A stretch of DNA of 64,000 nt from the NCBI GenBank assembly GCA_039915165.1, contig JBDSNU010000018.1:166617-230616 (forward strand), in the 5' to 3' direction. This document shows positions 23,132 through 38,892 of this stretch, piece after piece (the first letter of the stretch is position 1; every line of letters starts with the position of its first letter). Below the pieces are notes generated by a model. That model worked only from the letters and a program-made list of their open reading frames with translations, searched no databases and was not told the DNA's origin. Made by a program: the position numbers and the translations under genes. The DNA is from Minisyncoccota bacterium. Its GTDB lineage: Bacteria; Patescibacteriota; Minisyncoccia; Phycocordibacterales; UBA9973.

Positions 23132-23210
23132 GCGGGGCCAGGAATCGAACCTGGGCCTTAAGGTTATGAGCCTTACGAGATACCACTTCTCTACCCCGCG
23201 ATAGGGTATT
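23132..23210 (-). tRNA. tRNA-Met (CAT), initiator-like (C1:A72 mismatch)
   Basis: CGCGGGG...CCCCGCA acceptor with unpaired C1/A72, anticodon loop CTCATAA, T-arm CCAGG-TTCGATT-CCTGG; architecture parallels bacterial tRNA-fMet. Confidence 0.75.
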
Positions 23211-23333
23211 AGGTTTGGATTGTACAATTCTACGAGGATTATTGCAAGCCATCCTTATTTCTTCTTGAAATATAGCCCAAATATGCTATAGTCTTTTGGC
23301 ACTGATGCACGCCTGTAAATTGGTGTAAAAATT

Positions 23334-23410
23334 GTCGATGTAGCTCAGTTGGTTAGAGCGTAGCACTCATAAAGCTAAGGTCGGAGGATCGTTCCCTCCC
23401 ATCGACACCA
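23334..23410 (+). tRNA. tRNA with CAT anticodon (elongator Met or Ile2), CCA encoded, atypical T-loop
   Basis: acceptor GTCGATG/CATCGAC, D-arm AGCTCAGTTGGTTAGAGC, anticodon loop CTCATAA, T-arm GGAGG-ATCGTTC-CCTCC (A at position 54), 3' CCA. Confidence 0.7.
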
Positions 23411-23564
23411 TACCAGGGTTTCCTGGTATAATTAAAAAAGTACACTGCAGCAATGCATTCGTACCGTCCTCAATATGCGGTCGTACCCGCCCGAACGTAT
23501 CGATTTAAATGATCAATTCAATATTCGGTACGGGCGGGGCTCTGCTGGTTAGAGCGATCAATAT

Positions 23565-23804
23565 ATGTATACTGTCTACGTCTTACAAGATGACAAAGGT
23601 AATTTCTATAAAGGATTCACCAATGATCTTGCTAGACGTTTCAGTGAGCATGTAACTGGTCAAACCAAAACAACCAGAAAGATGTCTGGATTAAAAATTG
23701 TATACACTGAAGAATACGAGACATTACAAGAAGCTCGTACCAGAGAAGTTTATTTTAAAACTTCTGCTGGTCGAAGATTCTTGAAAGAAAAATTGCGGTC
23801 GTAG
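23565..23804 (+). CDS. small GIY-YIG nuclease-domain protein
   Basis: 'VYVLQDDKGNFYKGFTNDLARRFSEH' GIY-YIG core; 79 aa; stop abuts tRNA-Asp. Confidence 0.7.
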   Translation: MYTVYVLQDDKGNFYKGFTNDLARRFSEHVTGQTKTTRKMSGLKIVYTEEYETLQEARTREVYFKTSAGRRFLKEKLRS

Positions 23805-23878
23805 CTCAGCTGGTTAGAGCGCCCGCCTGTCACGCGGGAGGTCGGCGGTTCAAGTCCGCTCGATCGCGCAGAACTGGA
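23805..23878 (+). tRNA. tRNA-Asp (GTC)
   Basis: acceptor GCGGTCG/CGATCGC, anticodon stem CCCGC/GCGGG with loop CTGTCAC, T-loop TTCAAGT. Confidence 0.85.
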
Positions 23879-25479
23879 CAAAGCACCCCTAAACGGGTGT
23901 TTTGTCCTTTTATGGCAAAGGTTTTTCTCAGTTCCGACCGATTTATTTCCTTCTCAACGGCCTTACGCTTCTTATTGATCGGTTCTAGCCATATACACGG
24001 TAAAATAAAGAGTTCTTCGTCCTTTATGGTGTGGTTCCAACCAAGATCCATAAGTATGCTTTTCTTCTCCTCTAGGGATGTTTCAGGGTTATCAAATTTG
24101 GCTTTGGCGGTATGAGCAAAGTTAAAGACCTTTTCAGTGTGCTGTAGCCAGTTACGGCCAGAATCCTGTGTTTCGCCAGCCTTTTGCTTTAAGACTGCCA
24201 TTCGGTCAGTCAAAGCCTTCTTTCTCGTGGCATATTGCTCATCATTGATAAGCTCACGCATTCGCATCGTTATAAGGCTGTCCAGCTCCCTCTGGGAGGT
24301 TTCTATGGCACTTATTTGTGATTGGTACACTGCTTCTCGTTCCTCTGCTTCCTCGGAGTATTCTTCCTGTAAAATGCGTAAAGCCCAGTCTCGGAATTTC
24401 TCTGAAATGGTGTACTTATCTATTTCTGTTTTAATCATCGTTTCTACATCTCCCACGGGCATGTATTTTCTCTGGGTGCAGTCCTGGGCTCCTTTCTTGC
24501 GGTGGGAACAATAATAGAACGTATAATCTTTGAGCTCATTGGTAGTTTTTACAAGCTTGGTTTTTTCACAAGCAGTAATGCTACTACCACACTCACCACA
24601 AAGCATGGCTCCTGTATAAGCAAACTCATGCGTTTTAGCCCGAGGTTTTCCATATCGTCCCAGAAGTTTTTGGACCTTATCAAATTCCGCAGTTGTTACC
24701 ATTGGTTCATGCTCACCGTTACTGAGCTCGCCTCTGTATAAAAACATACCCGTAAAAAAGATATTCGTAAAAATACCGTACATCGTACTTTTGTTAATTG
24801 GATTACCGCCGCGATGTCGTGTTTGTCGTGTTCTCATGCCCCAATCGTCATTCATTATTTTCAAAAGCTTGGGAATAGTGTATTCACCAGTCAGCATTAA
24901 CTGCCAGGCTTTCTTAACCAATTCAAAACGCTCTGGGTCATTGATGATATAGTTTTCTCCACGGACCTCATGTTTTGTATTTAAGTATCCGAGTGGTGCA
25001 AGAATAGGAGCATGACCCTTTGCGACTTTACTGTTTATTCCTCGGCGAACGCCCACTTTCATATCCAAAATAAACTGGTTAGCACTGCCACTTTCCACAC
25101 TGAAAATAATGGCATTGTCATTGGGCTTATATTCTCGGCTCGGCGTAAGAATTGATTGTATCAATCCCTGTTGGAGCATCCATTGGAGCTTGCCACTGTC
25201 GACTGGGTTTCTTGAGAGACGATTTAAGTTATAACAAATTATGCCGTTTGCTTCACCGTTGGTAACACGCTCAAGCATGGCATCGAAGATTGGTCGTTTG
25301 TTTGGTTCTTTTGCCGAACCTTCTTCAGTCAAAACATCTACTGGTTTTATACCGTAGCGTTTTGCAACCGCTTCGTCTTCTCGGAGCTGGTCCGGGATAG
25401 ATTGAGCCTGTTTTTCATCTCCTTCTTGCGACTTGCGAGCATAAATGAAGTATTTAATTTTTGAATAATCATTAGTCAT
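23830..25479 (-). CDS. large serine recombinase (resolvase-type catalytic domain + recombinase domain + zinc ribbon)
   Basis: N-terminal 'YARKSQEGDEKQAQSIPDQ' (catalytic Ser/Arg region), C-terminal 'CGECGSS...YYCSHRKKGAQDC'; 549 aa; 3' end overlaps tRNA-Asp antisense. Confidence 0.75.
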   Translation of the reverse strand: MTNDYSKIKYFIYARKSQEGDEKQAQSIPDQLREDEAVAKRYGIKPVDVLTEEGSAKEPNKRPIFDAMLERVTNGEANGIICYNLNRLSRNPVDSGKLQWMLQQGLIQSILTPSREYKPNDNAIIFSVESGSANQFILDMKVGVRRGINSKVAKGHAPILAPLGYLNTKHEVRGENYIINDPERFELVKKAWQLMLTGEYTIPKLLKIMNDDWGMRTRQTRHRGGNPINKSTMYGIFTNIFFTGMFLYRGELSNGEHEPMVTTAEFDKVQKLLGRYGKPRAKTHEFAYTGAMLCGECGSSITACEKTKLVKTTNELKDYTFYYCSHRKKGAQDCTQRKYMPVGDVETMIKTEIDKYTISEKFRDWALRILQEEYSEEAEEREAVYQSQISAIETSQRELDSLITMRMRELINDEQYATRKKALTDRMAVLKQKAGETQDSGRNWLQHTEKVFNFAHTAKAKFDNPETSLEEKKSILMDLGWNHTIKDEELFILPCIWLEPINKKRKAVEKEINRSELRKTFAIKGQNTRLGVLCPVLRDRADLNRRPPA

Positions 25480-25480: not shown

Positions 25481-25654
25481 TTACTTGTTACTTGCCTTCT
25501 TCAAGGAGGCATCAAAATCCTTTTTCTCAATGCGGAACTCTTTGCCGAGCTTATAGGCCTTGAGCTTCTTTGCGCCAATCCATCGATAGATCGTCATAAC
25601 ATTCATCCCTAGTTTGTCGGCCAAATCTTTGGCGGTATAAAAGTCTTTTTCCAT
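25481..25654 (-). CDS. small HTH DNA-binding protein (excisionase/AlpA/MerR-like)
   Basis: 57-aa ORF (below ORF-track cutoff) 'MEKDFYTAKDLADKLGMNVMTIYRWIGAKKLKAYKLGKEFRIEKKDF...'; 2 nt upstream of recombinase start. Confidence 0.5.
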   Translation of the reverse strand: MEKDFYTAKDLADKLGMNVMTIYRWIGAKKLKAYKLGKEFRIEKKDFDASLKKASNK

Positions 25655-25691
25655 ATCTTAATAATACTTTACTATTCTTTACATTGCAAGT

Positions 25692-26807
25692 CTATGAAAT
25701 ACGCTTCATTAACTTCTCCAAAATAGCTTTTTCTTGTTCTGAGAGCATAAGGCTATTGCTTGCGCCTTCCTGGACATCTTTCAATTTCTGAACGATTTTA
25801 ACGGCACTTTCACTGTTCATACTGCCGTAGCCATATGATCCAAAAGTGGTACCGACATTCTCATGTCCTAGATTCATACTGATTGCTCGCTTTTCCTCCT
25901 CAGTCAGTCGCTTCTTGCTCAGAATGTTTACGACCAAGTGGCGGAATGAGTGCGGATGGAAATAGGGCAGGGATACGTTCTTGCATCGTTTCTCAAAAAC
26001 CTTGCGTGCTGCTCCTGTGGCCACCCAAGCATTTTGCCCGACTGTTTGTTTACTGTAGCTGTGTTCTCCATCGACAAAAGCTCCTTCTGTTATCGGAAAG
26101 ATTGGGTCATCAGACTGAAAGTCCTTGGACTCAAGGTATTCATACCATTCCATAAAATACTTTTCTGGATCGTCCCAGCCAATAGGGAAGAAAGTAGTGA
26201 GTATTCTTTTTGAGTTCTTTGTTTTTACTCCGTCACCTGGGTTCTGATCTATTTGCTTCAGTTCCTTATCAAAGGATTTCATTTTCAGTGAAATGATGGC
26301 AGAAATACGAGCACCAGTGATGAGAGCGAAGGAGATAAGAGCTCGATCGCGCATTTCAATTTCTGACTTCCCATTAATACCTTCAATTATTTTTCTGACA
26401 TCATCAAATGTGGGCATTTTCTTTGTGGTCCCTGATCGTGCTATTTGAGCATCAGCTTTTGAGAGACGTAAATAGTCCACATCGCTTTTGAGTATCTTGC
26501 TCTTGTAGCCTGGTTGTTCTGATAGCCATATAAAAAACTTCTTTACACGGCGCAGGTAGTTGGACTGAGTAACAAGCGATATTTTCCCTGACTTTGTTTT
26601 TGAAGGTCGAGTATTGATCCAGTCTGCAAATCCAATTGCCCTGGACTTATCGTAAGCGGAAAAGTCTTCATTTTTGGTGAAAGTTTCCCATTGGTTAATT
26701 GCATCAGCATGGGTAATCACGGAACTTTTGGCAAAACCACGAGCTCCTTTTAACTGTTCAAAGAACTCTCTTTTTATGCGCTCATTTTCATAGGTTGTTT
26801 TTGTCAT
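25692..26807 (-). CDS. tyrosine-type site-specific recombinase/integrase
   Basis: box I 'ALITGARISAI', box II 'HPHSFRHLVVN', catalytic Tyr region 'LGHENVGTTFGSYGY'; N-terminal SAM-like domain. Confidence 0.8.
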   Translation of the reverse strand: MTKTTYENERIKREFFEQLKGARGFAKSSVITHADAINQWETFTKNEDFSAYDKSRAIGFADWINTRPSKTKSGKISLVTQSNYLRRVKKFFIWLSEQPGYKSKILKSDVDYLRLSKADAQIARSGTTKKMPTFDDVRKIIEGINGKSEIEMRDRALISFALITGARISAIISLKMKSFDKELKQIDQNPGDGVKTKNSKRILTTFFPIGWDDPEKYFMEWYEYLESKDFQSDDPIFPITEGAFVDGEHSYSKQTVGQNAWVATGAARKVFEKRCKNVSLPYFHPHSFRHLVVNILSKKRLTEEEKRAISMNLGHENVGTTFGSYGYGSMNSESAVKIVQKLKDVQEGASNSLMLSEQEKAILEKLMKRIS

Positions 26808-27046
26808 AGAGGTTTATTGAAGGGTAAGGGAGTTGGCTTAAATGGTTTCAACGCACTTACCATGTTTTCGAGTAATGTAATGCCAGGCAGTAAATCATTT
26901 GCCGCCTGAAGCTGTTTTTTCTTGATACAGGCTTTCTGTATTTTTTTCAGATGTTCTATTTCTGACTCCAGTGCTGACGTAACAAATGGGACATTTTTAG
27001 GACTGATATTGAGAGGTATTTTTTCCTCAATGGGTGTTATTTCCAT
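26804..27046 (-). CDS. hypothetical small protein upstream of integrase
   Basis: 80-aa ORF overlapping integrase start by 4 nt. Confidence 0.3.
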   Translation of the reverse strand: MEITPIEEKIPLNISPKNVPFVTSALESEIEHLKKIQKACIKKKQLQAANDLLPGITLLENMVSALKPFKPTPLPFNKPL

Positions 27047-27163
27047 AAATTATTTTGGATTATTTTAGTAAGGTATTTTGTCATCGTAATAAGATGCATG
27101 ATTAGTGGTTATAGAGGACATTTAAGTGGGAAGGGAGAATATCATATAGTCCTTTTGGGAGAG

Positions 27164-27508
27164 TTAGATTGTCCGACTCATTCTTCCGTTACAGACACGA
27201 CATAGGGCCATTTTTTGTTTCTGCAGCTTTCTGAGTGAGCCCCGTTTCGCACTTCTTGCGGCTTTGCAGGTAAGACAATAAAACTCACTCCGCTTCAGTT
27301 TGGTTTTCTTTTTCAAGTCCTTTTTTCTTAGAAACTCCTTTATGTCCGAGCCAAGTATGAGGATCCGCTTTTTACCGTTAGTGATGATTGGGAGGCCGTT
27401 TTCTATCCAGCGATGGCAAGTCTTTTCACTGACCTCCAAGCTCTCTGACATTTGTTTAATCGTATAGCTCATTGAGCCATAGATTTTTTGACGGTTAATC
27501 CTTGTCAT
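27164..27508 (-). CDS. HTH + C-terminal zinc-ribbon DNA-binding protein
   Basis: 'YTIKQMSESLEVSEKTCHRWIENG' HTH; 'CLTCKAA...CRVCNG' Cys4. Confidence 0.4.
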   Translation of the reverse strand: MTRINRQKIYGSMSYTIKQMSESLEVSEKTCHRWIENGLPIITNGKKRILILGSDIKEFLRKKDLKKKTKLKRSEFYCLTCKAARSAKRGSLRKLQKQKMALCRVCNGRMSRTI

Positions 27509-27695
27509 CGGATTATTTGCGAGGAATAATAATCGTTCGGTCTTTCTTTTGAGCCGTCGGACGATATATCAAAGAAATCAAATGCAAAAGCTTCGTGCCA
27601 TTTTCATAGGCATCTTCTTTGCTGATTTCTACTCCAAAGTGTTCTTTGTACAACTGTTGGAACTCTTTGATATGTTCGTCTGAAAGGACCACGAG

Positions 27696-27977
27696 TTACT
27701 CGCTGTACAGCTTGTTCTTAAGGGCTTTCAGATGGTCAAAGTATGATCTGGCTTTGACTTCCAATTTGTCGCTGAAATATTTATTGGCTACTTCTTCAAT
27801 GCCAGCTTCTTTCTTAAACACAAACAGTGCTTTGCGTGGGTCACTTTTTTGGACCGTGAGAAGCTCAAAATCCGCACAGAGGAGTGCGGCTGATACACCG
27901 AGGTCGTAGGTAGTCCATACAAACGATGGGTCATCGAGCGGTATATTGCTCGATGACGATACTTTATTACTTTTCAT
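27696..27977 (-). CDS. DUF5659-like small protein (often integrase-associated)
   Basis: 'TTYDLGVSAALLCADFELLTVQK...ALFVFKKE' pattern; 93 aa. Confidence 0.3.
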   Translation of the reverse strand: MKSNKVSSSSNIPLDDPSFVWTTYDLGVSAALLCADFELLTVQKSDPRKALFVFKKEAGIEEVANKYFSDKLEVKARSYFDHLKALKNKLYSE

Positions 27978-28189: not shown

Positions 28190-29086
28190 TTAATTTGGTA
28201 ACTTTAGCTCACACTCCTTTAGCAGGATAAACTTGCTCACAAGCCCATACTTTAGGGCGAGTGTCTTAAAGTCATCAAGATGGTCTGCCCCATAGAGGAC
28301 AACGGCTTTTTTCTTGCGGCCTTTCTTCAAAAGCTCTTCTGCCGTTCTTGCAAGGGCGATTTCGTTCCTGCATCTAATCAGAAGCGGAACGAACTGGTTG
28401 ATAATCTTGGACCGAGTACTACTCGAAACGCTGTTTTCGTCCATCTTAAGGATTTCTGATTCAGCGAAGTTTATCCAATACGGGTTAGTGCCAATAACAT
28501 AGGGCTTTTGCTGGTTTTTCATAAGCCTGTCTACAACGTAGTCATACTTACGAAATCGCTCAAACACTGCAACCGCACGCTGGGCTGGGATGATCGTATC
28601 GATTCCGTACCTGAGCTTCGCGTCCTTACTTACGTCTGCAACAGTTTCCTGTACAAGGTTCTGGTATCTAATCCTGCCGTGAGCGGTAGAGTGCTCGGCC
28701 CCGATAAACAGATACTTGCTTGTATCAATAAGGTTGCCTATAGCGCATTGGCATTTGCCAATAACGGTGTCACTAACAGGCTGCTGCATACCAAATGAGC
28801 TATGAAGCATACCAATGAAATCAATCTTTACTCCCTTAATTGAGTCAAGCACTTTTGTTTCTGCTACTAAGTGCGGATAATCTGCCTTAATAGAGTCGAG
28901 CAGGGTAGCAAGTACTGGTTCTGAAAAAGCACCGAACCATTGGGGTAATTCTCCAATCGCACCTTCCGCAGCTATGGTTGCGTGCGGGGAATTTTGAAAG
29001 TCGTTTGATTGCTGTTGCTCATGGTTTTCATGGCAAGAGAAAAGGCTAAATAACAAGCCAGAGAGAAGAATAAAGACTTTTTTCAT
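28190..29086 (-). CDS. lipoprotein, TraB/GumN-family-like
   Basis: lipobox 'LLSGLLFSLFSC'; 'IDFIGMLHSSFG' and 'VLYGADHLDD' resemble the two conserved TraB/GumN motifs. Confidence 0.35.
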   Translation of the reverse strand: MKKVFILLSGLLFSLFSCHENHEQQQSNDFQNSPHATIAAEGAIGELPQWFGAFSEPVLATLLDSIKADYPHLVAETKVLDSIKGVKIDFIGMLHSSFGMQQPVSDTVIGKCQCAIGNLIDTSKYLFIGAEHSTAHGRIRYQNLVQETVADVSKDAKLRYGIDTIIPAQRAVAVFERFRKYDYVVDRLMKNQQKPYVIGTNPYWINFAESEILKMDENSVSSSTRSKIINQFVPLLIRCRNEIALARTAEELLKKGRKKKAVVLYGADHLDDFKTLALKYGLVSKFILLKECELKLPN

Positions 29087-29177
29087 ATCTTTTATTTTAT
29101 GGTTTAAGTAACTATTGTTTTCATCACAATAGCATATTTATTAAAAAAGTCAAATATAGTGCAATGAAATAAAAAGA

Positions 29178-29214: not shown

Positions 29215-29224
29215 GATCTGATTA

Positions 29225-32887: not shown

Positions 32888-32923
32888 TAGGTAAAGCGGA
32901 ATTTGAACTGGTATACTGTGCTT

Positions 32924-33478
32924 ATGAAAAAAGTATTTATCATCCACGGTTTCGAAGGCAGTCCAAACGGCGCTTGGCGAGGATGGCTCATGTCTGAGCT
33001 TGAGAAGGATGATGTCTATGCTTGTGCATTACCTATGCCGAATCCTGAGGCACCGATCCAAAAGGAATGGGTTGATGAAATAGCGAGAGTTGTTGAGCAC
33101 AGCAAGGACGATGAATTGTATTTGGTAGGGCATAGCCTTGGATCAACCGCTATTTTGAGATACCTAGAAACAACAAAGATAATGTTTAGTGGAGTCATTC
33201 TTGTCTCTGCTCCTGTGCAAGAAACATTTAATAGAAAGATTGATAATTTCTTTCAAGTTTCATTTGACTATGAAGCTATCAAGACGAAAGTAAAGAAGAA
33301 AGTGGTTATTCACGGAGGTAATGATCCATATGTGCTTATTGAAAAACATGGTGATGTTTTGGTAAAAGAGCTTGATGCAGAATATTTTGTTATAAAAGAG
33401 GGAGGGCACCTTAATGGTTCTGCCGGTTGGCATGCATTGCCCGAGTGTCTAGAAGCTCTTAATAGAATGCTGAAATAG
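32924..33478 (+). CDS. RBBP9/YdeN-family serine hydrolase (alpha/beta fold)
   Basis: 'VFIIHGFEGSPNGAW' and nucleophile elbow 'GHSLGS'. Confidence 0.65.
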   Translation: MKKVFIIHGFEGSPNGAWRGWLMSELEKDDVYACALPMPNPEAPIQKEWVDEIARVVEHSKDDELYLVGHSLGSTAILRYLETTKIMFSGVILVSAPVQETFNRKIDNFFQVSFDYEAIKTKVKKKVVIHGGNDPYVLIEKHGDVLVKELDAEYFVIKEGGHLNGSAGWHALPECLEALNRMLK

Positions 33479-34435
33479 ATGAGTAGTTTCATTGAAAACA
33501 CACAACGATCTGAAGCCATTGCACGCATAGTCAAAACCAAAGGCTTTGATAAAAAAGTCAGCGAACTGTCAATCGCTGTCATTGATCTAAAGAATCCATC
33601 AGAAATTTTTGGAGCAAACCTTGATGCTTTTATGTATCCGGCCAGCGTGTTTAAGATCTTCATTGGGGCTGAAGTACTCAGGCAAGTAGAAGAAGGAAAA
33701 CATACTCTTGCTCAAGAGATACTAGTAAAACTCTTGAACGAAATACCGAAAGAATTGAGGCTTTATCCTGATCCTCGAACAACCCTAAAGACTGGAGACA
33801 AGGTAGCGATTGATAAGTTGCTCTATCTCATGCTTGCCGTCAGCGACAATACCGCCTCGAACTGCCTGTATGAGCTGGTAGGGATGGAAAGTATAATTAA
33901 GAATATTGTTGAGCCGAATGGATGGCAAGGTACCGGGCTTACCCCGTACTTCATCGATCAGGTTAAACAGCATAAACCATATCGCCATACCGAGATGCTG
34001 CAGACGAATGCGCGGCACGTTGCCGAGTTCTTTGCATTGGTGGAGCAGGAAAAATTGATAAGCCCATTTGTTTCAAGAAAGTTGAAGGAATATATGCTTA
34101 AGTTTGACCGCACCTCAAGGCACGGATATTCCTATCCAGAATTTCTGCGCTACAGAAAGGGCGGCTACTTGGAAACAAATCTATATACTTCTTTTTACAG
34201 AAAGAGCGGGTTTGGCTTTGATATGGTAAAAGGATTCGGTGCGCTTGTTAAAAACATTGTTACCAAAGGATGGGCGTTCCAGCGGTACATGCATGATGCG
34301 GGCGTGATAGAAGGGAAGAACTCGAAATACGTTGCTGTAATCTTTACGCTCTCAAGGCAGATGAATCCTAGAAAGTTCTTTCAAATGAATGGGTTGGCAA
34401 AAGAACTATTTGAATATATGGAAGCTCAAAGTTAA
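33479..34435 (+). CDS. class A beta-lactamase-related serine hydrolase
   Basis: SxxK 'ASVFK', SDN 'VSDNTASN'; start codon overlaps upstream stop. Confidence 0.55.
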   Translation: MSSFIENTQRSEAIARIVKTKGFDKKVSELSIAVIDLKNPSEIFGANLDAFMYPASVFKIFIGAEVLRQVEEGKHTLAQEILVKLLNEIPKELRLYPDPRTTLKTGDKVAIDKLLYLMLAVSDNTASNCLYELVGMESIIKNIVEPNGWQGTGLTPYFIDQVKQHKPYRHTEMLQTNARHVAEFFALVEQEKLISPFVSRKLKEYMLKFDRTSRHGYSYPEFLRYRKGGYLETNLYTSFYRKSGFGFDMVKGFGALVKNIVTKGWAFQRYMHDAGVIEGKNSKYVAVIFTLSRQMNPRKFFQMNGLAKELFEYMEAQS

Positions 34436-34437
34436 TT

Positions 34438-34869
34438 ATGAAAACTATTTATAAAATCGCCAACTCAATTCGTCGTATCTATTGGTACATTTTCCGTCCG
34501 CATACCCAAGGCGTTAAATGCCTTATTGAATGCAATGGAGAATATCTATTAATTCAAACAAGTTATTCAGGAAAGTATTGGACGTTGGCCGGAGGGGGTG
34601 TGGGTAGAAACGAGGGTCCTGAAACTGCTGCAATTAGGGAAGTAAATGAGGAACTTGGAATTAAGGTTGGTTCTATAAAGCAGATCGGACAGTATGAAAG
34701 CACTATTGAATATAAGAAAGATACTGTTTATTTATTTCATGCCCAAGTTTCAAGTAAGGACTTTAACTCAAACAGCACGGAGGTTTCTGATGCTCGCTGG
34801 TTTTCTAAAAAAGAATTGCCCGAGAATCGCTCAAGGGCATTGAATGAGTCAATACTTAAACAGACTTAG
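34438..34869 (+). CDS. NUDIX hydrolase
   Basis: Nudix box 'GGGVGRNEGPETAAIREVNEELGI'. Confidence 0.85.
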   Translation: MKTIYKIANSIRRIYWYIFRPHTQGVKCLIECNGEYLLIQTSYSGKYWTLAGGGVGRNEGPETAAIREVNEELGIKVGSIKQIGQYESTIEYKKDTVYLFHAQVSSKDFNSNSTEVSDARWFSKKELPENRSRALNESILKQT

Positions 34870-34887
34870 AACTGATATAATGATCTC

Positions 34888-35430
34888 ATGAAAGAAATAA
34901 TTATTATAGGAACACTTCACCACGAATTTACCCCAAAGGCCGAGCTTGAGGAAATCATCAAGGGAATCAATCCGGACAAGGTTCTTGTCGAACTGTCTCC
35001 GGAGGAGTTGCTTCGGCCTCGAGAGGATTCTATCCGTGACGAGATGTTCTTCGCCCACGACTGGGCCGTTGAAAATGGTAAGCAGGTAGACGTATTCGAT
35101 ATCGAAAACCATACGCTTAAGGATGGCTTTACTGGAAGAGAGGTAGGTTTAATCCAGCTAGGTTCCGAGATGGGGGAATTACTGAAGGTGCATTCATGGA
35201 AAGAGCAGAACAGCGAGAATGCCTGGAAGACTCCAGAATATACTAAAGTAAATGATCTTATAATGGAAAAATACTTTAACAGTGAAAAGCTCGAGGAAAG
35301 GAATCAGACAATGCTGCAAAACATCAAGGACAAGGTCATCGAGGGAAAGAACCTTGTGATTGCAGGCACGGCGCACCTTACGTTTTTCAAGGAGCAGCTG
35401 CCGAACGCTATACTGCCGTTGAGGAAGTAG
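34888..35430 (+). CDS. TraB-family protein (short form)
   Basis: 'IIIGTLHH' and 'LVIAGTAHL' conserved TraB/GumN motifs. Confidence 0.55.
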   Translation: MKEIIIIGTLHHEFTPKAELEEIIKGINPDKVLVELSPEELLRPREDSIRDEMFFAHDWAVENGKQVDVFDIENHTLKDGFTGREVGLIQLGSEMGELLKVHSWKEQNSENAWKTPEYTKVNDLIMEKYFNSEKLEERNQTMLQNIKDKVIEGKNLVIAGTAHLTFFKEQLPNAILPLRK

Positions 35431-35433
35431 TTT

Positions 35434-35587
35434 TTAAATTCGGCACATATACAAACCCCTTATACTCCCGTATCCTAGTTCCAACTGCCTCCGCCAGGGC
35501 GCGCACATTGTCCGCCATAGTCACGTCTGACGTGACGAAGGACGAAGGAGGAACGAAAAAGAACCCTAGGAATAGGGTTCTTTTTCT
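35434..35587 (+). repeat. intergenic repeat copy A (with 44-nt insertion bearing palindrome gtcacgtctgacgtgac) + terminator hairpin gaaccctaggaatagggttc
   Basis: ~65-nt 5' module ~80% identical to copy B; shared 'ccagggcgcgca(a)cgaaaaa'+hairpin+TTTTTC. Confidence 0.7.
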
Positions 35588-35636
35588 ATTGGGTTAAGTA
35601 GACCCTTTTGACTTTCTGCAAAATTACTATAGTGTA

Positions 35637-36218
35637 ATGGAAATAAACAATTTCGTACAATTAAAAAATAATCTAATGACCGAACAAGACGTACTAACGC
35701 TTATTTCAAATGATCCATGGATGATGGAAGTGCTTCGCGCTGCGGAAACACTTCATTTACCACAATGGGCGATCGGTGCAGGATTTGTCCGTAATAAAGT
35801 CTGGAATGAATTATCTAGCTATTCTAATAGAGTTCATTCTACAGATATTGATCTCATCTATTTTGATCCTACAAATACTAACGAGGAAGTAGAAAAGGAT
35901 TATGACCGACTGCTAAGGGATATTATAAACGTAGAATGGTCTACGAAAAACCAAGCACGAATGTATTTAGTTGATAATGAAAAACCCTATTCTTCTACAG
36001 TAGATGCATTAGCTCACTGGCCTGAAACGGCTACCGCTATTGCTGTAACTATTGAAGATGGAACATTAAAACTTATTGCTTCTTATGGAATTCATGATCT
36101 TGTAAATCTTATTGTGCGACCGTGTCCAAAATTTAATAAGGGAATGGAGAGGGTAAAAGAACGAATGGAAAAGAAGAAGTGGCTTGAGCAATGGCCTGGT
36201 CTAACGTTAGAAAATTAA
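35637..36218 (+). CDS. uncharacterised nucleotidyltransferase-family protein (PF06042-like)
   Basis: 'WAIGAGFVRNKVWNELS' and 'DIDLIYFD' motifs. Confidence 0.4.
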   Translation: MEINNFVQLKNNLMTEQDVLTLISNDPWMMEVLRAAETLHLPQWAIGAGFVRNKVWNELSSYSNRVHSTDIDLIYFDPTNTNEEVEKDYDRLLRDIINVEWSTKNQARMYLVDNEKPYSSTVDALAHWPETATAIAVTIEDGTLKLIASYGIHDLVNLIVRPCPKFNKGMERVKERMEKKKWLEQWPGLTLEN

Positions 36219-36245
36219 ATCCTTACAATACTTTGTGAGGATTTT

Positions 36246-36353
36246 TTCAATTCTGGAACATATACAAAACCTCTATATTCCCTTATCCTAGTTCCAACAG
36301 CCTCTACCAGGGCGCGCAACGAAAAACACCCTTCAAATGAAGGGTGTTTTTCT
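36246..36353 (+). repeat. intergenic repeat copy B + terminator hairpin cacccttcaaatgaagggtg
   Basis: 'ttcaattctggaacatatacaaaacctctatattcccttatcctagttccaacagcctctaccagggcgcgcaacgaaaaa' + hairpin + TTTTTC. Confidence 0.7.
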
Positions 36354-36400
36354 ATGGTAAATGTTATAATTTAAGTAATTATTATTTAGCCTTTTATTTT

Positions 36401-37825
36401 ATGACTTCACCAGAAGGTTCCCATTCAGCCCAAGAAAATGCTCTCCCATATTCAGTAGAGAAAATTGAAGATTTGCAGCGTCCTGAAGTTGGGGTTAAAT
36501 CCAATCAGCTGCTCATTAATGGCGAAGTGCTTGGTGGATATAAACATGTGAGTGATGTCAGTCCTCAAAAAAATAATTCAGATTTAGTGTATTTTAATGC
36601 AGTGAAAGAAGGGGAAGAAAGTAGTTATAACACTGGACGTATCATCGACATTAACAACCCCGAAAAAGAATTAGTAACTATTACAGCTTCTGACAATAGA
36701 AACTATAGAGATAGTAAAAAATTTTTTGTTAATGGTAACGAGTGGAATTCATTGCAAGGCAAAAATATATACTTTAGTGGCTATCACGTTGAGCATGATC
36801 CCATTGGTAATAAAACAGTATTTAGAGCACACAAAGATCATGCTATAAACGGTTCCAAAGCAGCAGTAATAGTTAACAACCGTGAATGGAATACTGGCTT
36901 TAGTGAGATTCAAAAAGCCACCAGTGAATATGGTACAGCCTATGCTTTGGCTGATGGCAGATTGGTTATTGAAGATAAAGAATGGTTGTATCCAAAATAT
37001 TCTGAACAGCAGAAAAAAGATAATTACAGTCTCAACTGGAATGGGTTAGACACAATATCTGAGGCCCGAATTGGTAAAAACGGTGAAGTTGCAGCAGCAC
37101 TGTATACCACTCGAGGTGAAGGTCGTGATGGTATTGGTAGCTATATTATCACTGGAGATACACAAGGTGCACGCAACGAATGGAAGCACCCATTACAATT
37201 TGTAAAAGATATTGCTATTGATGAAGTAACAGGAATGGTTGCTGCATATGGTTCAAAATTTGGTGCTCGTAATAAGACAGAAATTATTATTAATGATATT
37301 CCTTATACAGTTGAAGATGCTCCGGAAAAATTAAACTATTTTACATTCAAAGACGGCGCACTTGTTATTGAATATACAGATGCATTAGGTCAAAAGGTCG
37401 CAGAAAAAATTACTCTCAATGAGCAATCTGGTGAATTACAAATAATGAAAGAGGGGAAGGATAGTGAAGAAAAAGCTTTGTATGAATTACGTAAAATGTT
37501 AGCAGAGCAAAACATTCCTATTTCAGAAATCATGTCACGATTGAACACCGCCACTCTTTTGGAAGAACAGCAAAAAAATAATAAAAATTTAGCTAATAAT
37601 TTTGATACCGTACACAGTCAAAAAGCGACCCTAGAAATTGAATTGCAAAAACAACAAGCACTTATTGCTGAAAAAGACGCAAGAATAATAAGCCTAGAAC
37701 AAGATAAGGCAAAAGCTGAAGACAGAATTAATACCATTAAGGCATCAATCAGTGCGGCTGACTCTGCAATGATGGGTGGATATAAGATCTCAAAAGAAGT
37801 AAGAAATAATATTCTGAATACTTAA
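36401..37825 (+). CDS. hypothetical protein with C-terminal coiled coil
   Basis: ORF frame opens with GTG inside upstream terminator; first ATG at 36401; last ~100 aa heptad-rich. Confidence 0.4.
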   Translation: MTSPEGSHSAQENALPYSVEKIEDLQRPEVGVKSNQLLINGEVLGGYKHVSDVSPQKNNSDLVYFNAVKEGEESSYNTGRIIDINNPEKELVTITASDNRNYRDSKKFFVNGNEWNSLQGKNIYFSGYHVEHDPIGNKTVFRAHKDHAINGSKAAVIVNNREWNTGFSEIQKATSEYGTAYALADGRLVIEDKEWLYPKYSEQQKKDNYSLNWNGLDTISEARIGKNGEVAAALYTTRGEGRDGIGSYIITGDTQGARNEWKHPLQFVKDIAIDEVTGMVAAYGSKFGARNKTEIIINDIPYTVEDAPEKLNYFTFKDGALVIEYTDALGQKVAEKITLNEQSGELQIMKEGKDSEEKALYELRKMLAEQNIPISEIMSRLNTATLLEEQQKNNKNLANNFDTVHSQKATLEIELQKQQALIAEKDARIISLEQDKAKAEDRINTIKASISAADSAMMGGYKISKEVRNNILNT

Positions 37826-37873
37826 GGATGCAATAATCCTTCCCAAAACTTTTTAAAAGCGTATAGTTTTCAT

Positions 37874-38599
37874 ATGAATAAAATAATTTTAATCGTACTC
37901 GCTATTCTCATTATCGGAACTGGAGCGTATCTTGTTACAAAAAATGACACCATGGATACAGTACCTGCAGCCACTATTGTAGATACTACGCCAGTACCTG
38001 TTACTCCAATTGAGAATCCTACTCCAGCCACGACCGATACCACGCCTTCAGTGTCTTGGTTAACATACACAAACGCTGATTACGGTTTCAGTTTTCAATA
38101 TCCAAGTACCTGGAAATTATCTGAAGATAAAACAAAGAAAAGTGTAACAATCAAAACTGTAGAATATAGCGCTGCTGTTGAAAAAAATGATATTGATTAC
38201 GAATCAATTACATTCCAAGCAACAACAAAAGCATTCTTCACTCCCCACCTCGGTACAAAGTACGGAGAAATTGCATATGATGACAAGCAGGGAGCAATCG
38301 TAGATGTGTCATCATCTCCAGTTCGTTGTCTCGACACTTCAACATTGTTAAGCGGTCTCCATCAGATTACTACTGCAATCAAAACAATTCCTTATTCAGG
38401 TAGTTTAATGGCAACGCCAGCATATAGTGATGCAGCAATCTTAACAAAGAACGGTAGCATTATTATTGTTACAGAAAATAATGAACCAAGCACAAAGACC
38501 ACTGCCTCAAATCTGATCACTGCAAATGTAAAAACAATTGCGAATTCATTTACATTGCTTGGTGGTAATACGGTAGTAACCCCTGCGTGCTCGAAGTAA
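37874..38599 (+). CDS. secreted hypothetical protein
   Basis: N-terminal TM 'IILIVLAILIIGTGAYLV', Thr/Pro linker. Confidence 0.4.
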   Translation: MNKIILIVLAILIIGTGAYLVTKNDTMDTVPAATIVDTTPVPVTPIENPTPATTDTTPSVSWLTYTNADYGFSFQYPSTWKLSEDKTKKSVTIKTVEYSAAVEKNDIDYESITFQATTKAFFTPHLGTKYGEIAYDDKQGAIVDVSSSPVRCLDTSTLLSGLHQITTAIKTIPYSGSLMATPAYSDAAILTKNGSIIIVTENNEPSTKTTASNLITANVKTIANSFTLLGGNTVVTPACSK

Positions 38600-38637
38600 A
38601 AAGTGATATAATAGAAGTATTAGCAGATAACTAATTA

Positions 38638-38892
38638 ATGTATATGTATTACGGATATTTTGACCTCGTTGATTCTATGTACCACATCTTGGGATGGGTA
38701 TTGTTTATTATGTTTATCGTGTGGATTGTTCGCGGAGCTCGCGGACGTCACCATAGTAGATGGTGTGATGGCACAAGCTGTAACCACCCAGTACATGGCA
38801 ATACTCGTGCTATTGATCTCTTGAAGGAACGCTATGCAAAAGGGGAGATTGATACTAAGGAATTCGAAGAAAAAAAGAAAAATTTGATGTAA
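38638..38892 (+). CDS. SHOCT-domain small membrane protein
   Basis: TM then 'IDLLKERYAKGEIDTKEFEEKKKNL'. Confidence 0.55.
   Translation: MYMYYGYFDLVDSMYHILGWVLFIMFIVWIVRGARGRHHSRWCDGTSCNHPVHGNTRAIDLLKERYAKGEIDTKEFEEKKKNLM

What the first reader, a model, noticed from the sequence alone, without database searches (positions are those of the whole stretch)
23132..38892. tRNA-anchored ~15-kb accessory island carrying two different recombinases
Three tRNAs (initiator-like Met, CAT-anticodon tRNA, Asp) sit next to a 549-aa large serine recombinase whose last 49 nt overlap tRNA-Asp antisense, then a 57-aa HTH gene and a tyrosine integrase. Nearly all downstream genes up to the DEAD-box helicase promoter are accessory (lipoproteins, secreted proteins, hydrolases, unknowns), unlike the flanking pil/ligA/gatCA/typA blocks. 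Finding both a serine and a tyrosine recombinase suggests nested or tandem integrative elements at a tRNA hotspot.
Basis: partly seen in the sequence, partly recalled or inferred. Interest (0 to 1): 0.6.

Follow-up and report, generated by a model that had tools for sequence, protein, structure and literature searches.

The report
Serine-recombinase element array at tRNA-Asp
An uncultured ultra-small (CPR/Patescibacteria) bacterium carries, at the end of its tRNA-Asp gene, a 9-kb mobile element inserted by a large serine recombinase whose own gene runs across the insertion junction. It is followed by two or three recombinase-less gene cassettes bounded by the same kind of site, which makes it a new variant of a known type of island, not two unrelated elements.

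Summary
The three tRNAs, an intact 549-aa large serine recombinase (LSR), a 57-aa excisionase-like HTH and an intact tyrosine recombinase (YR) are all present. The LSR gene overlaps tRNA-Asp antisense by 40 nt, not 49. The whole stretch from tRNA-Asp to the DEAD-box gene is missing in the closest available relative.

Both recombinases belong to one 8,981-bp element (23871-32851). The LSR defines its ends: attL is a 6-bp core, CGCGCA, at the tRNA-Asp 3' terminus, and attR1 lies at 32846-32851. attP lies inside the 3' end of the LSR gene, so integration replaces the protein's native tail (…CPVLR|GLVDEV…) with antisense-tRNA codons. The same overlap occurs in 22 other metagenomic loci. Their hosts are only about 50% identical in GatA.

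The YR module (25482-27543) fills a slot that holds a 391-aa gene in sister elements, and it also pairs with distant LSRs.

Downstream are LSR-less units (32852-35505, 35506-36318, probably 36319 to about 38960). The first two end in the same recombinase-tail arm and core. A homologous single cassette sits alone at tRNA-Asp in another genome.

The closest precedent is the Dehalococcoides ssrA islands (DsiB), followed by SCC. Mobility is inferred, not shown.

The parts
23795..23869 (+). tRNA-Asp(GTC). Its 3' acceptor end forms the left (B) arm of the integration site. The gene is complete after integration.
   Evidence: ARAGORN and Rfam at 68.2 bits. Twenty-two other loci have an LSR homologue overlapping this tRNA antisense.
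23865..23870 (+). attL core CGCGCA, spanning tRNA positions ~70-73 plus 2 nt. The crossover lies somewhere within it.
   Evidence: It is the only sequence shared by attL and attR1-3 in the window and by attL/attR pairs in 6 other loci.
23871..23915 (+). P' arm of attL. It is the antisense of LSR codons …NTRLGVLCPVL and contains a 13-bp-stem hairpin followed by a T-run, which probably terminates tRNA-Asp transcription.
   Evidence: The arm is conserved in 15 of the 17 other loci aligned; L101 and L107 have diverged or partly deleted arms. It is the top terminator-like hit, at 23876-23907.
23830..25479 (-). Large serine recombinase, 549 aa. The last 13 codons and the stop are antisense tRNA-Asp.
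   Evidence: Pfam PF00239, PF07508 and PF13408; phrog_95 integrase; PDB A118 and SPbeta integrases. Of its 120 best homologues, 75 end in antisense-tRNA tails and 9 in a conserved 'LVDEVGTAIR' tail.
25481..25654 (-). 57-aa excisionase-family HTH, part of the YR module.
   Evidence: PF12728; TIGR01764 at 43.8 bits against a cut-off of 28.8.
25692..26807 (-). Tyrosine recombinase, 371 aa, intact.
   Evidence: PF00589. R167, K197/K200, H286, R289, H315 and Y325/Y327 are invariant in 23 homologues down to 63% identity. It is not an integron integrase or a Xer equivalog.
26804..27046 (-). 80-aa protein of unknown function, part of the YR module.
   Evidence: It is co-linear with the YR in L089, L111 and L113.
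27116..27150 (-). Conserved non-coding block upstream of the p80-YR-HTH-LSR operon (ACTATATGATATTCTCCCTTCCCACTTAAATGTCC). It is a candidate promoter/operator or YR site.
   Evidence: It occurs with at most 8 mismatches in every YR-type locus that covers this region, including the distant L114 and L115, and with 1 mismatch in L122 where the left flank differs. No RNA structure was found.
27164..27508 (-). 114-aa protein with an HTH_17 domain and C-terminal Cys pairs. It is the conserved partner of the YR.
   Evidence: PF12728. Homologues at 53-78% identity sit next to the YR in L111, L113, L114 and L115.
25482..27543 (-). The YR module as a whole. It occupies the slot that holds a 391-aa gene in sister elements.
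   Evidence: In L085, L087, L088 and L094, DNA homology stops at about 27544-27559 and resumes at about 25473-25486. The 391-aa protein has only a weak Phage_CRI (G2P replication protein) hit, E 0.027.
27513..27977 (-). Backbone genes p59 (27513-27692) and DUF5659 (27696-27977).
   Evidence: They are found next to the LSR in most related loci at 55-80% identity.
28190..31284 (.). Element cargo. It comprises a 298-aa lipoprotein-like protein (-), a 152/170-aa secreted protein (-), a 284-aa secreted protein (+) and a 215-aa membrane protein (+). All are of unknown function.
   Evidence: ORFs and translations; no Pfam hits.
31388..32776 (+). p462, a backbone gene of unknown function. It is inverted here relative to sister elements.
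   Evidence: Homologues at 53-59% identity lie inside the elements of L095, L096, L097, L103 and L106.
32790..32851 (-). attR1: a P arm encoding the LSR's native tail (L)RGLVDEVRTAVIDYHTSVS*, plus the core CGCGCA at 32846-32851.
   Evidence: tblastn hit E 0.001. The 31-mer has 2 mismatches to the family P-arm consensus. Joining it in silico to attL gives an in-frame 556-aa LSR ending CPVLRGLVDEV….
32852..35505 (+). Cassette C1, 2,654 bp. An R arm (spacer, hairpin, TGGTATACT, then ATG at 32924) is followed by Ser_hydrolase, a Beta-lactamase2-family gene, NUDIX and a TraB-like gene. It ends in a P arm (35431-35499) and core (35500-35505).
   Evidence: Pfam. P arm: tblastn E 0.002 and the regex scan. 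The R arm is about 85-90% identical to the arm that follows tRNA-Asp in L005.
35506..36318 (+). Cassette C2, 813 bp. A 47-nt insert and an R arm are followed by the NTP_transf_6 gene (35637-36218) and a terminator. It ends in a P arm (36236-36312) and core (36313-36318).
   Evidence: Pfam E 1.7e-51. P arm: tblastn E 3e-5. The R arm differs by 1 mismatch from C1's, and the P arm is 83% identical to C1's (repeat family D2).
36319..38960 (+). Possible third unit. An R-type arm (ACGAAAAA, hairpin, TGTTATAAT) is followed by a 493-aa protein, a 241-aa secreted protein and an 84-aa SHOCT protein. No distal P arm was found.
   Evidence: Arm alignment. No CGCGCA occurs on the + strand between 36319 and 39395. 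The genes are absent from L013.
38963..40466 (+). Right flank, conserved chromosome: the DEAD-box helicase gene and its promoter.
   Evidence: Promoter match 11/12. The helicase has a 68% identical orthologue lying about 0.8 kb after tRNA-Asp in L013.

Best explanation
The region is a composite island built at the 3' end of tRNA-Asp by one family of large serine recombinases.

**The driver.** It is an 8,981-bp integrative element (23871-32851). Its attP lies inside the last codons of its own LSR gene. attP is an imperfect palindrome, GTCCAC(C/T)AGTCCGCGCAG(A/T)ACTGGAC.

**Integration.**
- The LSR recombines attP with the tRNA-Asp terminus at a 6-bp identity, CGCGCA.
- The tRNA is rebuilt exactly.
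- The element supplies a new terminator hairpin, which is encoded within LSR codons.
- The LSR's native C-terminal tail (…CPVLR|GLVDEVRTAV…) is left at the far end as attR. It is replaced by 13 codons read from the antisense of the tRNA.
- Excision would restore the native tail.

**The YR module.** The tyrosine recombinase with its HTH partners is an exchangeable internal module of this element, not a second element. Its role is unknown. The most likely role is a secondary recombination or maintenance function acting on the element itself.

**The downstream units.** At least two LSR-less units (C1, C2; perhaps C3) follow the driver.
- C1 and C2 each start with a terminator-plus-promoter arm and end with an LSR-tail (P) arm plus the core. 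C3 has only the front arm.
- They behave like cis-mobilisable cassettes. They accreted by repeated use of the tRNA-proximal site.
- They can be left behind, or carried along, depending on which attR the LSR uses.

**Shown:** site anatomy, conservation, target specificity and in-frame reconstruction. **Inferred:** actual recombination, directionality, and present-day mobility.
For: 1. In 22 further loci, LSR homologues (63-83% identical) overlap tRNA-Asp antisense next to gatA-p199-tRNA-Met. The hosts' GatA is only 49-54% identical to ours.
2. Of the 120 best LSR homologues, 75 end in antisense-tRNA tails. Nine carry a different, conserved tail, LR[DG]LVDEVGTAIRxHNxYIYIP.
3. That native tail is encoded in frame at the far end of the elements in L093, L095, L096, L097, L102 and L106, giving element sizes of 5.2-11.3 kb. 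In L102 that far-end site is followed, about 50 nt on, by tRNA-Thr(ggt). In L008, which has no LSR, the same tRNA lies 9 nt after tRNA-Asp.
4. The native tail is encoded three times in the window, at 32.85, 35.50 and 36.32 kb.
5. attL and attR share only CGCGC(A), and their arms are conserved. Intact P-core-P' sites exist in L083, L084 and L124.
6. Joining attL in silico to each of the three distal sites gives in-frame LSRs of 556, 568 and 570 aa with family-typical tails, and a tRNA-Asp followed by a terminator.
7. L013 lacks the whole island.
8. The YR module boundaries are clean. YR-LSR pairing recurs with a 36%-identical LSR at tRNA-Gln (L115) and with another at tRNA-Arg (L114). The YR catalytic residues are invariant.
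9. Cassette model:
   - C1's right arm resembles C2's right arm, and C1's P arm resembles C2's P arm. This mosaic is what successive insertion at the tRNA predicts.
   - L005 has tRNA-Asp, then the same R arm, then one multicopper-oxidase gene, then a P arm and core, with no LSR on its 7.7-kb contig.
   - L111 has a one-gene MFS unit between two P arms.
   - L084 has a 4.1-kb LSR-less unit between the tRNA and an LSR.
   - The R arm is absent from the seven loci whose tRNA-Asp has no element or cassette next to it.
Against: - No excised circle, empty site or alternative junction was observed for this organism. All three sources carry the same arrangement.
- The only 'empty' comparator is a distant relative (GatA 65% identical).
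- Canonical serine integrases do not use attL or attR as targets. Repeated insertion at an occupied site therefore needs either relaxed half-site requirements or composite excision and integration. Neither was tested.
- No distal P arm was found for the third unit.
- The LSR-less units could be deletion remnants. Decay is seen elsewhere: a truncated LSR in L107-L109 and a P' stub in L084.
- No recombination directionality factor was identified.
- The YR's role is unresolved.
- Relatives of the NTP_transf_6 cargo gene in L117 and L118 lack att arms.
Confidence: 0.75

Rival explanations
1. One reading: two different integrative elements, one serine-recombinase based and one tyrosine-integrase based, nested or in tandem at the tRNA hotspot.
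For: - Two intact recombinases of different families lie side by side, and the YR has its own excisionase-like HTH.
- The YR module is absent from most sister elements, so it was acquired as a block.
- Exchange of int/xis for a serine recombinase between related elements is known (Tn916/Tn5397; my own knowledge).
Against: - The YR module lies 1.6 kb inside the LSR element. No direct repeats or tRNA fragments flank it.
- It exactly replaces a 1.4-kb gene between p59 and the LSR start codon.
- The 80aa-YR-HTH-LSR genes are contiguous, with gaps of -4, 37 and 1 nt.
- The same pairing recurs with distant LSRs at other tRNAs.
Confidence: 0.1
2. The LSR-less segments (32.85-36.32 kb and beyond) are only decayed remains of former full-length LSR elements. 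They are fixed in the chromosome and no longer mobilisable.
For: - Decay of such elements is seen elsewhere: a truncated LSR in L107-L109, a 75-nt P' stub next to tRNA-Asp in L084, and a 47-nt insertion in the second site.
- The third unit lacks a distal site.
- The same suggestion was made for part of the Dehalococcoides ssrA islands (PMC3146451).
Against: - The front (R) arm of about 70 nt, with hairpin, extended -10 box and start codon, is conserved between C1, C2 and a cassette with unrelated cargo in a host only 51% identical in GatA.
- It is absent from the seven loci whose tRNA-Asp has no element or cassette next to it.
- All three distal sites keep the core and an open, in-frame tail.
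Confidence: 0.3
3. The tyrosine recombinase is the real tRNA-Asp integrase, as in classical tRNA islands. The LSR is an accessory resolvase or invertase.
For: - Most tRNA-anchored islands use tyrosine integrases (Islander paper, PMC4383910).
- An excisionase-like HTH accompanies the YR.
Against: - Most elements at tRNA-Asp have the LSR but no YR.
- The tRNA target changes with the LSR lineage while the YR stays 63% identical (L115 at tRNA-Gln).
- The identity between the ends is 6 bp, with palindromic arms. There is no 15-60-bp repeat of the tRNA end.
- The att site is physically part of the LSR gene.
Confidence: 0.03
4. The whole island is an old, now immobile feature of this lineage. The recombinase genes are kept for another reason, or are simply not yet decayed.
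For: - The arrangement is identical in two samples and an NCBI MAG.
- Composition is host-like.
- No empty-site variant is available.
Against: - Both recombinases are intact with conserved catalytic residues.
- The att arms are well preserved (2 mismatches in 31 nt to the family consensus).
- LSRs of hosts whose GatA is only about 50% identical to ours are 63-83% identical to this one, so transfer is much more recent than host divergence.
Confidence: 0.15

Closest known systems
Dehalococcoides ssrA-specific genomic islands (DsiB/DsiA integration module; McMurdie et al. 2011, PMC3146451)
   Same: - A serine recombinase of about 540 aa sits on the reverse strand next to attL.
- Its 3' end always overlaps attL, so the stop codon lies in the target RNA gene or in the neighbouring island.
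- The target is the 3' end of a small stable-RNA gene.
- Islands occur in tandem downstream of the target.
- Many islands lack the integration module and were interpreted as cis-mobilisable elements.
- A second recombinase gene sits in the same operon.
   Different: - The target is tRNA-Asp, not tmRNA.
- The exact repeat is 6 bp, not 20 bp.
- The second recombinase is a tyrosine recombinase with HTH partners, present in a subset only, rather than a small serine recombinase.
- The host is CPR/Patescibacteria.
- Here the displaced native tail is conserved and recognisable at attR.
- The LSR scores far below the CcrB equivalog cut-off (44.9 against 900 bits). Homology to DsiB itself was not tested.
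SCC/SCCmec with CcrAB or CcrC, and composite or pseudo-SCC arrays at rlmH (orfX) (my own knowledge; mentioned in PMC3146451)
   Same: - Integration by a large serine recombinase at the 3' end of a conserved single-copy gene.
- Repeated use of the same site gives tandem composite islands.
- Some units lack recombinase genes.
   Different: - The target is a protein-coding gene.
- There are two serine recombinases.
- Ccr genes lie inside the element and do not span the att site.
- The host is Staphylococcus.
CIMEs and the accretion-mobilisation model of ICE/IME evolution (reviewed in PMC5704250)
   Same: - Units flanked by att sites but without recombination genes sit in tandem with an autonomous element.
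- Alternative att partners allow the driver to excise alone or together with the passenger.
   Different: - The model was described for tyrosine-integrase ICEs of streptococci that transfer by conjugation.
- No conjugation or mobilisation genes are present here.
- The recombinase here is a serine integrase.
Tycheposons of Prochlorococcus (Hackl et al., bioRxiv 10.1101/2020.12.28.424599)
   Same: - Small cargo-carrying integrative elements at tRNA genes of a streamlined genome.
- Tandem junctions and island build-up.
- A minority use large serine recombinases.
   Different: - 910 of 937 use tyrosine recombinases.
- Many carry replication genes.
- No overlap between the recombinase gene and its att site is reported in the text I read.
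Myxophage Mx8 intP/attP (my own knowledge, not checked here)
   Same: attP lies within the integrase coding sequence, so integration changes the 3' end of the integrase gene and hence the protein's C-terminus.
   Different: It is a tyrosine integrase of a phage, and the target is a tRNA-Asp locus of Myxococcus. There are no cassettes.
Integrons
   Same: - An array of mostly single-function cassettes in one orientation next to a recombinase.
- Each cassette ends in a recombination site.
   Different: - No IntI-type integrase and no attC hairpins.
- The cassettes here carry their own promoter-like arm.
- The sites resemble serine-integrase att sites.

Membership tests
Large serine recombinase (serine integrase) | N-terminal resolvase catalytic domain with the nucleophilic serine | tested here: met
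   PF00239, E 2.4e-13. The Y-x-R-x-S motif (YARKS, S17) is present here and in 94 of 120 homologues.
Large serine recombinase (serine integrase) | Recombinase domain plus zinc-ribbon domain C-terminal to the catalytic domain | tested here: met
   PF07508 (27.4 bits against a cut-off of 21.1) and PF13408 (34.7 against 25.3). Residues 236-403 align to the A118 integrase C-terminal domain structures 4KIS and 6DNW.
Large serine recombinase (serine integrase) | Short att sites (about 40-50 bp) with imperfect inverted-repeat arms around a very short crossover. attL and attR share only the core. | tested here: met
   The shared core is CGCGC(A). The P and P' arms form the imperfect palindrome GTCCACTAGTCCGCGCAGTACTGGAC. 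Seen in the window and 6 loci with both ends.
Large serine recombinase (serine integrase) | Catalyses attP x attB recombination, and needs a directionality factor for excision | not testable with these tools
   Only in-silico reconstruction was possible. No directionality factor was identified.
Tyrosine recombinase | Catalytic domain with the R-K-H-R-H/W-Y residues | tested here: met
   PF00589, E 2e-14. R167, K197/K200, H286, R289, H315 and Y325/Y327 are invariant in 23 sequences.
Integron (IntI + attI + attC cassettes) | An integron-type integrase, as recognised by NCBI's integron-integrase family model | tested here: not met
   The NCBIfam scan of the YR returned only weak Xer/XerA-type hits far below their cut-offs (best 47 bits against 220) and no integron-integrase equivalog.
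Integron (IntI + attI + attC cassettes) | Cassettes end in attC imperfect-palindrome sites | tested here: not met
   The cassette ends are LSR-tail P arms plus CGCGCA, not attC-like hairpins.
SCC / Ccr recombinases | CcrA/CcrB or CcrC equivalog | tested here: not met
   CcrB 44.9 bits, CcrC 40.6 and CcrA 30.7, against cut-offs of 700-900.
Dehalococcoides-type ssrA-GI (architecture class) | The LSR lies next to attL on the reverse strand, and its 3' end and stop codon lie in the target RNA gene | tested here: met
   Window 23830-23869, and 22 other loci. Compared with the description in PMC3146451.
Dehalococcoides-type ssrA-GI (architecture class) | Tandem islands bounded by repeats of the att sequence, some without an integration module | tested here: met
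   Sites at 23865, 32846, 35500 and 36313. Units C1 and C2 have no recombinase.
Dehalococcoides-type ssrA-GI (architecture class) | A small serine recombinase (DsiA) is co-encoded, the target is ssrA, and the direct repeat is 20 bp | tested here: not met
   The second recombinase is a tyrosine recombinase, the target is tRNA-Asp, and the exact repeat is 6 bp.
Dehalococcoides-type ssrA-GI (architecture class) | Sequence homology of the LSR to DsiB | not tested
Cis-mobilisable element (CIME) | Flanked by functional att sites, with no recombination or transfer genes of its own | tested here: inconclusive
   The anatomy fits C1 and C2. Whether the sites function could not be tested.
Prophage or phage satellite | Capsid, terminase or other virion genes, or matches in viral collections | tested here: not met
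   The 9 driver-element proteins scanned against PHROGs hit only integrase and excisionase-type families (the 114-aa HTH also gave a weak, HTH-driven terminase-small-subunit match). The other driver ORFs and the cassette genes were not scanned. No relative of the LSR was found in IMG/VR.

The most novel reading that the evidence does not exclude
CPR/Patescibacteria may have a dedicated cassette-capture platform at tRNA-Asp, and at tRNA-Gln and tRNA-Arg in sister lineages.
- Autonomous LSR 'driver' elements would insert, exchange and export small promoter-bearing, recombinase-less cassettes through a shared att code.
- Function would resemble an integron, but the platform would be built on a serine integrase whose C-terminus is switched by the integration state.
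- The conserved tyrosine recombinase would provide a second, still unknown recombination step.
Probability: 0.3. Interest if true: 0.75.

Novelty: new variant of a known kind. Interest (0 to 1): 0.55.

Why it matters
- CPR bacteria have tiny genomes, almost no described mobile elements and hardly any genetic tools.
- This LSR family has about 2,000 database relatives. Its target is precise and universally conserved: the last six bases of tRNA-Asp. Its att sites can be read directly from sequence.
- That makes it a plausible route of gene flow among these organisms and a candidate integration tool for them.
- The system is also a clean natural case in which integration rewrites the recombinase's own C-terminus. 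That could couple recombinase activity or directionality to the integration state. The idea was raised for Dehalococcoides DsiB and never resolved.
- The recurrent pairing of a serine with a tyrosine recombinase, and the recombinase-less cassettes with a conserved front arm, are concrete hypotheses that can be tested.

Tried and rejected
- **Direct repeat of the tRNA-Asp 3' end.** I searched a 24-mer and a 19-mer with up to 3 mismatches, then ran sliding-match scans. None was found at the island's distal edge or elsewhere. The only 13-nt exact copy (26341-26353) lies inside the YR gene, where it codes RDRA. I treated it as coincidence.
- **Integron hypothesis** (a YR divergent from a + strand gene array with repeated intergenic sequences). 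Rejected: there is no IntI signature, and the repeats turned out to be LSR-tail arms.
- **Compositional foreignness.** No signal in GC, skews or tetranucleotides.
- **Rfam over the window.** Only tRNAs were found.
- **Phage origin.** There are no virion genes and no IMG/VR relatives.
- **RNA structure in the conserved block upstream of the YR operon.** None was found.
- **Contexts of NTP_transf_6 homologues (L117, L118).** I used these to test whether cassette C2 is mobile as a unit. They carry no att arms, so the test was uninformative.
- **Right arms of the distal sites as stubs of deleted LSR genes.** I first read them this way because of a peptide-level resemblance. The 7-nt spacer (against 13 nt in P') and the conserved arm in L005 argue that they are a separate arm type. 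This remains unsettled.
- **Function of the 391-aa alternative gene.** There is only a sub-threshold Phage_CRI hit.
- **More arrays in L119-L123.** No P arms lie within the 10-kb flanks.

Full report
**Source and observation.** The window is part of a 90.9-kb metagenomic contig (Logan SRR26386601) from a CPR/Patescibacteria (Paceibacterota-like) bacterium. The best species-representative match of its GatA is 65% identical.

- tRNA-Met(cat) at 23129-23200 (-), tRNA-Met(cat) at 23334-23410 (+) and tRNA-Asp(gtc) at 23795-23869 (+).
- A 549-aa large serine recombinase (LSR) at 23830-25479 (-), with the Resolvase, Recombinase and Zn_ribbon_recom domains.
- A 57-aa excisionase-family HTH at 25481-25654.
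- A 371-aa tyrosine recombinase (YR) at 25692-26807.

The LSR/tRNA overlap is 40 nt, not 49. An 11,263-nt contig from a second sample is 100% identical. An NCBI MAG encodes the YR 100% identical over its full length and the NTP_transf_6 protein 100% identical over 93% of the query. The arrangement is therefore not an assembly artefact.

**Is it an island?** In the closest representative genome (locus L013), the order pil genes-ligA-gatC-gatA-p199-tRNA-Met-tRNA-Met-tRNA-Asp is conserved. There, tRNA-Asp is followed within about 0.8 kb by the orthologue of the DEAD-box helicase (window 39075-40466), then by tRNA-Thr(ggt) and typA. None of the roughly 22 genes between 23.87 and 39.0 kb has a match there. 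Other Patescibacteria show tRNA-Asp next to tRNA-Thr(ggt) directly (L008) or within 1.1 kb (L007). The caveat is that the comparator is distant. Base composition gives no signal.

**What anchors it: the serine recombinase.** A protein search returned about 2,000 relatives; the best 120 range from 85% down to about 46% identity. Their C-termini fall into classes:
- 75 of 120 end in tails such as LRDRADLNRRPPA or RRDSNPQP. These are the antisense translation of a tRNA acceptor/T-arm, and the stop codon is the antisense of the anticodon loop.
- 26 stop at about the same point.
- 9 share a different, conserved tail after CPVLR: (D/G)LVDEVGTAIRxHNxYIYIPNL.

In 22 further loci the LSR's 3' end overlaps tRNA-Asp(gtc) antisense, beside the same gatA-p199-tRNA-Met cluster. 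The hosts' GatA is only 49-54% identical to ours, whereas the LSRs are 63-83% identical. The element therefore moves between lineages and always lands at this tRNA. More distant LSRs sit the same way on tRNA-Gln (L115/L116) or abut tRNA-Arg (L114).

**The other end.** The alternative tail looked like the un-recombined (attP-side) end of the gene. If so, it should be encoded at the far end of the integrated element, on the LSR's strand. tblastn with those tails found exactly that in L093, L095, L096, L097, L102 and L106. The element sizes are 5.2-11.3 kb, and L102's far flank leads into tRNA-Thr(ggt). It also found three sites in the window, at 32852-32817, 35506-35432 and 36328-36236 (E 0.001, 0.002 and 3e-5). 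These coincide with intergenic repeats found earlier. A 31-nt P-arm consensus from other loci matches 32821-32851 with 2 mismatches.

Junction alignments show three things:
- attL is the tRNA end …TCGNNCGCGC|A followed by a conserved P' arm, AGTACTGGACAGAGCACCCCGAAAGGGGTGTTTTG. That arm is the antisense of …NTPFGVLCPVL and is the strongest terminator-like hairpin in the region (23876-23907).
- attR is the conserved P arm GCAGTTCCCACTTCGTCCACTAGNCGCGCA followed by variable host sequence.
- The only shared identity is CGCGC(A), and P plus P' form an imperfect palindrome. This is typical serine-integrase site anatomy.

Intact P-core-P' sites exist in L083, L084 and L124/L125.

In the window the cores lie at 23865, 32846, 35500 and 36313. 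Joining attL to the first distal site in silico gives two products. One is a 556-aa LSR ending CPVLR|GLVDEVRTAVIDYHTSVS. The other is a complete tRNA-Asp followed by a terminator. The other two distal sites also give in-frame proteins, of 568 and 570 aa. This explains why the search for a repeat of the tRNA 3' end failed.

**One element with two recombinases.** The unit 23871-32851 (8,981 bp) contains the LSR, the HTH57-YR-p80-HTH114 module, the backbone genes p59 and DUF5659, four genes for secreted or membrane proteins of unknown function, and p462. The genes p59, DUF5659 and p462 recur inside sister elements.

DNA comparison shows homology with sister elements stopping at about 27544-27559 and resuming at about 25473-25486. 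The 2.06-kb YR module therefore replaces, cleanly, a 1.4-kb gene for a 391-aa protein. That protein's only hint of function is a sub-threshold match to the G2P rolling-circle replication protein (E 0.027).

The YR variant is common: L089, L098, L111-L113 and L119-L123. An HTH114-YR pair about 63% identical also accompanies a 36%-identical LSR at tRNA-Gln (L115). In L114 it accompanies yet another LSR, in an element carrying a diversity-generating retroelement. The YR's catalytic residues are invariant across 23 homologues. The YR is neither an integron integrase nor a Xer equivalog.

These facts argue against two nested elements and against the YR being the tRNA integrase. They say the YR is functional but do not say what it does. 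A conserved non-coding block upstream of its operon (27116-27150) is a candidate promoter/operator or recombination site, and it has no RNA structure. My best guess, held weakly, is that the YR acts on the element itself, for example on its circular form. It occupies the slot of a possible replication gene, and it is more conserved than the target-defining LSR.

**The rest of the island: recombinase-less cassettes.**
- Between the distal sites lie C1 (32852-35505) and C2 (35506-36318). C1 holds Ser_hydrolase, a Beta-lactamase2-family gene, NUDIX and a TraB-like gene. C2 holds NTP_transf_6.
- The sites are mosaic. The right arms of site 1 and site 2 are nearly identical (1 mismatch in 33 nt). 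The P arms of site 2 and site 3 are 83% identical over 75 nt. This is the pattern expected if C2, then C1, then the driver were inserted successively at the tRNA-proximal site, each bringing its own front (R) arm and rear (P) arm.
- The R arm consists of a short A-rich spacer, a hairpin, an extended -10-like box (TGGTATACT) and a start codon a few bases later.
- In another genome (L005; GatA 51% identical), tRNA-Asp is followed by the same R arm (3 mismatches in 33 nt, with the same box), one multicopper-oxidase gene, and a P arm plus core. No LSR was found on that 7.7-kb contig. This is the state expected after the driver excises through its own attR.
- The R arm is absent from the seven loci whose tRNA-Asp has no element or cassette next to it.
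- Further recombinase-less units occur in L111-L113 (one MFS gene between two P arms) and in L084 (4.1 kb between tRNA-Asp and an LSR that consequently carries a native-type tail).
- The third site's right arm is also R-type. The segment 36319 to about 38960 (a 493-aa protein, a 241-aa secreted protein and a SHOCT protein) may therefore be a third unit. I found no distal site for it.

Whether these units are actively mobilised or are relics is not decided by the data.

**Comparison with what is known.** The literature library yielded no description of such elements in CPR bacteria. It did contain a very close architectural precedent, the Dehalococcoides ssrA-specific genomic islands (PMC3146451). 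That paper reports:
- a 540-aa CcrB-like serine recombinase on the reverse strand next to attL;
- tandem islands, 15 of them without an integration module, read as cis-mobilisable elements;
- a second (small serine) recombinase in the operon;
- speculation that the recombinase is fully functional only on the circular form.

The present system shares all of the architecture. It differs in five ways:
- The target is tRNA-Asp.
- The exact repeat is 6 bp instead of 20 bp.
- The partner recombinase is tyrosine-type, present in a subset only.
- The host phylum is different.
- The displaced native tail is conserved and identifiable.

SCC/Ccr, CIME accretion and tycheposons are further analogues. Mx8 intP is the tyrosine-recombinase analogue of the tail swap (my own knowledge). 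The LSR is not a Ccr or XisF equivalog.

**Verdict.** The finding is real. The interpretation needs correcting, from 'two elements with two recombinases' to 'one LSR-driven element with an internal YR module, plus LSR-less cassettes'. The system is a new variant of a known kind. Confidence is high for the anatomy, the target and the tail swap. It is moderate for the cassette model and low for any statement about the YR's role. No step of recombination was observed directly.

Noticed in passing
window 23531-23804: A 79-aa GIY-YIG ORF (23565-23804) sits between tRNA-Met and tRNA-Asp. It ends 10 nt inside tRNA-Asp and is preceded by a 26-nt fragment 85% identical to the 5' end of tRNA-Asp (23531-23556). 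A paralogue lies at 58860-59168. Homologues also lie between tRNA genes in L022, L005 and L007. It may be a homing-type selfish gene associated with tRNA clusters.
   Followed up: partly
window 40520-41275: An IS200/IS605-type Y1 transposase (RAYT-like, 40595-41251) is bracketed by 25-nt palindromes (40520-40544, 40588-40612, 41251-41275). It lies between the DEAD-box gene and tRNA-Thr and is absent at this position in L013. A homologue lies next to gatC in L084.
   Followed up: partly
window 41746-41819: tRNA-Thr(ggt) is on the - strand here but on the + strand, downstream of tRNA-Asp, in L013, L007 and L008. This suggests a small local inversion next to the transposase.
   Followed up: no
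window 26341-26353: An exact 13-nt copy of the tRNA-Asp 3' end (GCTCGATCGCGCA, including the CGCGCA core) lies inside the tyrosine recombinase gene, where it codes RDRA. About 0.002 such matches are expected by chance. I treated it as coincidence but cannot exclude a pseudo-site.
   Followed up: partly
window 27116-27150 (- strand); also L089, L111-L116, L119-L123: A 35-nt non-coding block upstream of the p80-YR operon is conserved in every YR-type locus that covers this region. It has at most 8 mismatches even where the YR is 63% identical, and 1 mismatch in L122, where the sequence to its left is unrelated. It is flanked by GGAC[AT][AT]T boxes and a conserved ATGACAAAA box. No RNA structure was found. 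It may be a promoter/operator or a YR site.
   Followed up: partly
window 29775-32776: The p284-p215-p462 segment is in the opposite orientation to the LSR. In sister elements (L095, L096, L097, L103, L106) the p462 homologue is on the LSR's strand. This indicates an internal inversion whose end points I did not map.
   Followed up: no
L013 9048-9217: About 145 nt downstream of tRNA-Asp in the 'empty' relative, a GC-rich stretch ends in a 25-mer that matches the tRNA-Asp 3' end at 19 of 25 positions (…GTCCCGTCGATCGCGCA). It may be a scar of a past integration or part of another structured RNA.
   Followed up: no
L122 9565-12153: An LSR of this family is followed by a LAGLIDADG-type ORF, and no tRNA-Asp is detected. 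The tRNA-Asp there may contain a group I intron, as reported for Patescibacteria in PMC13011429.
   Followed up: no
L114 4249-12327: A related YR + LSR element carries a diversity-generating retroelement (reverse transcriptase plus bAvd). Its LSR 3' end abuts the 5' end of tRNA-Arg(tcg) on the same strand, a different geometry from the tRNA-Asp family.
   Followed up: no
L124 10001-21683: A 58%-identical LSR with an intact P-core-P' site lies on a 90-kb contig. Downstream are defence genes (CBASS SMODS/E2, Abi_alpha, SymE). Upstream lies a gene with a Por_Secre_tail domain, which I associate (my own knowledge) with Bacteroidota type IX secretion. The family may therefore extend beyond CPR, or this may be an un-integrated element.
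   Followed up: partly
window 1-6000: This stretch has the strongest tetranucleotide deviation in the window (z up to 3.6). It is a run of small accessory-type genes (AHSA1, NT5C, PNPOx, DUF1761, DoxX) next to tRNA-Ser (4981-5066). No recombinase was found. Its gene types resemble the array in L118.
   Followed up: partly
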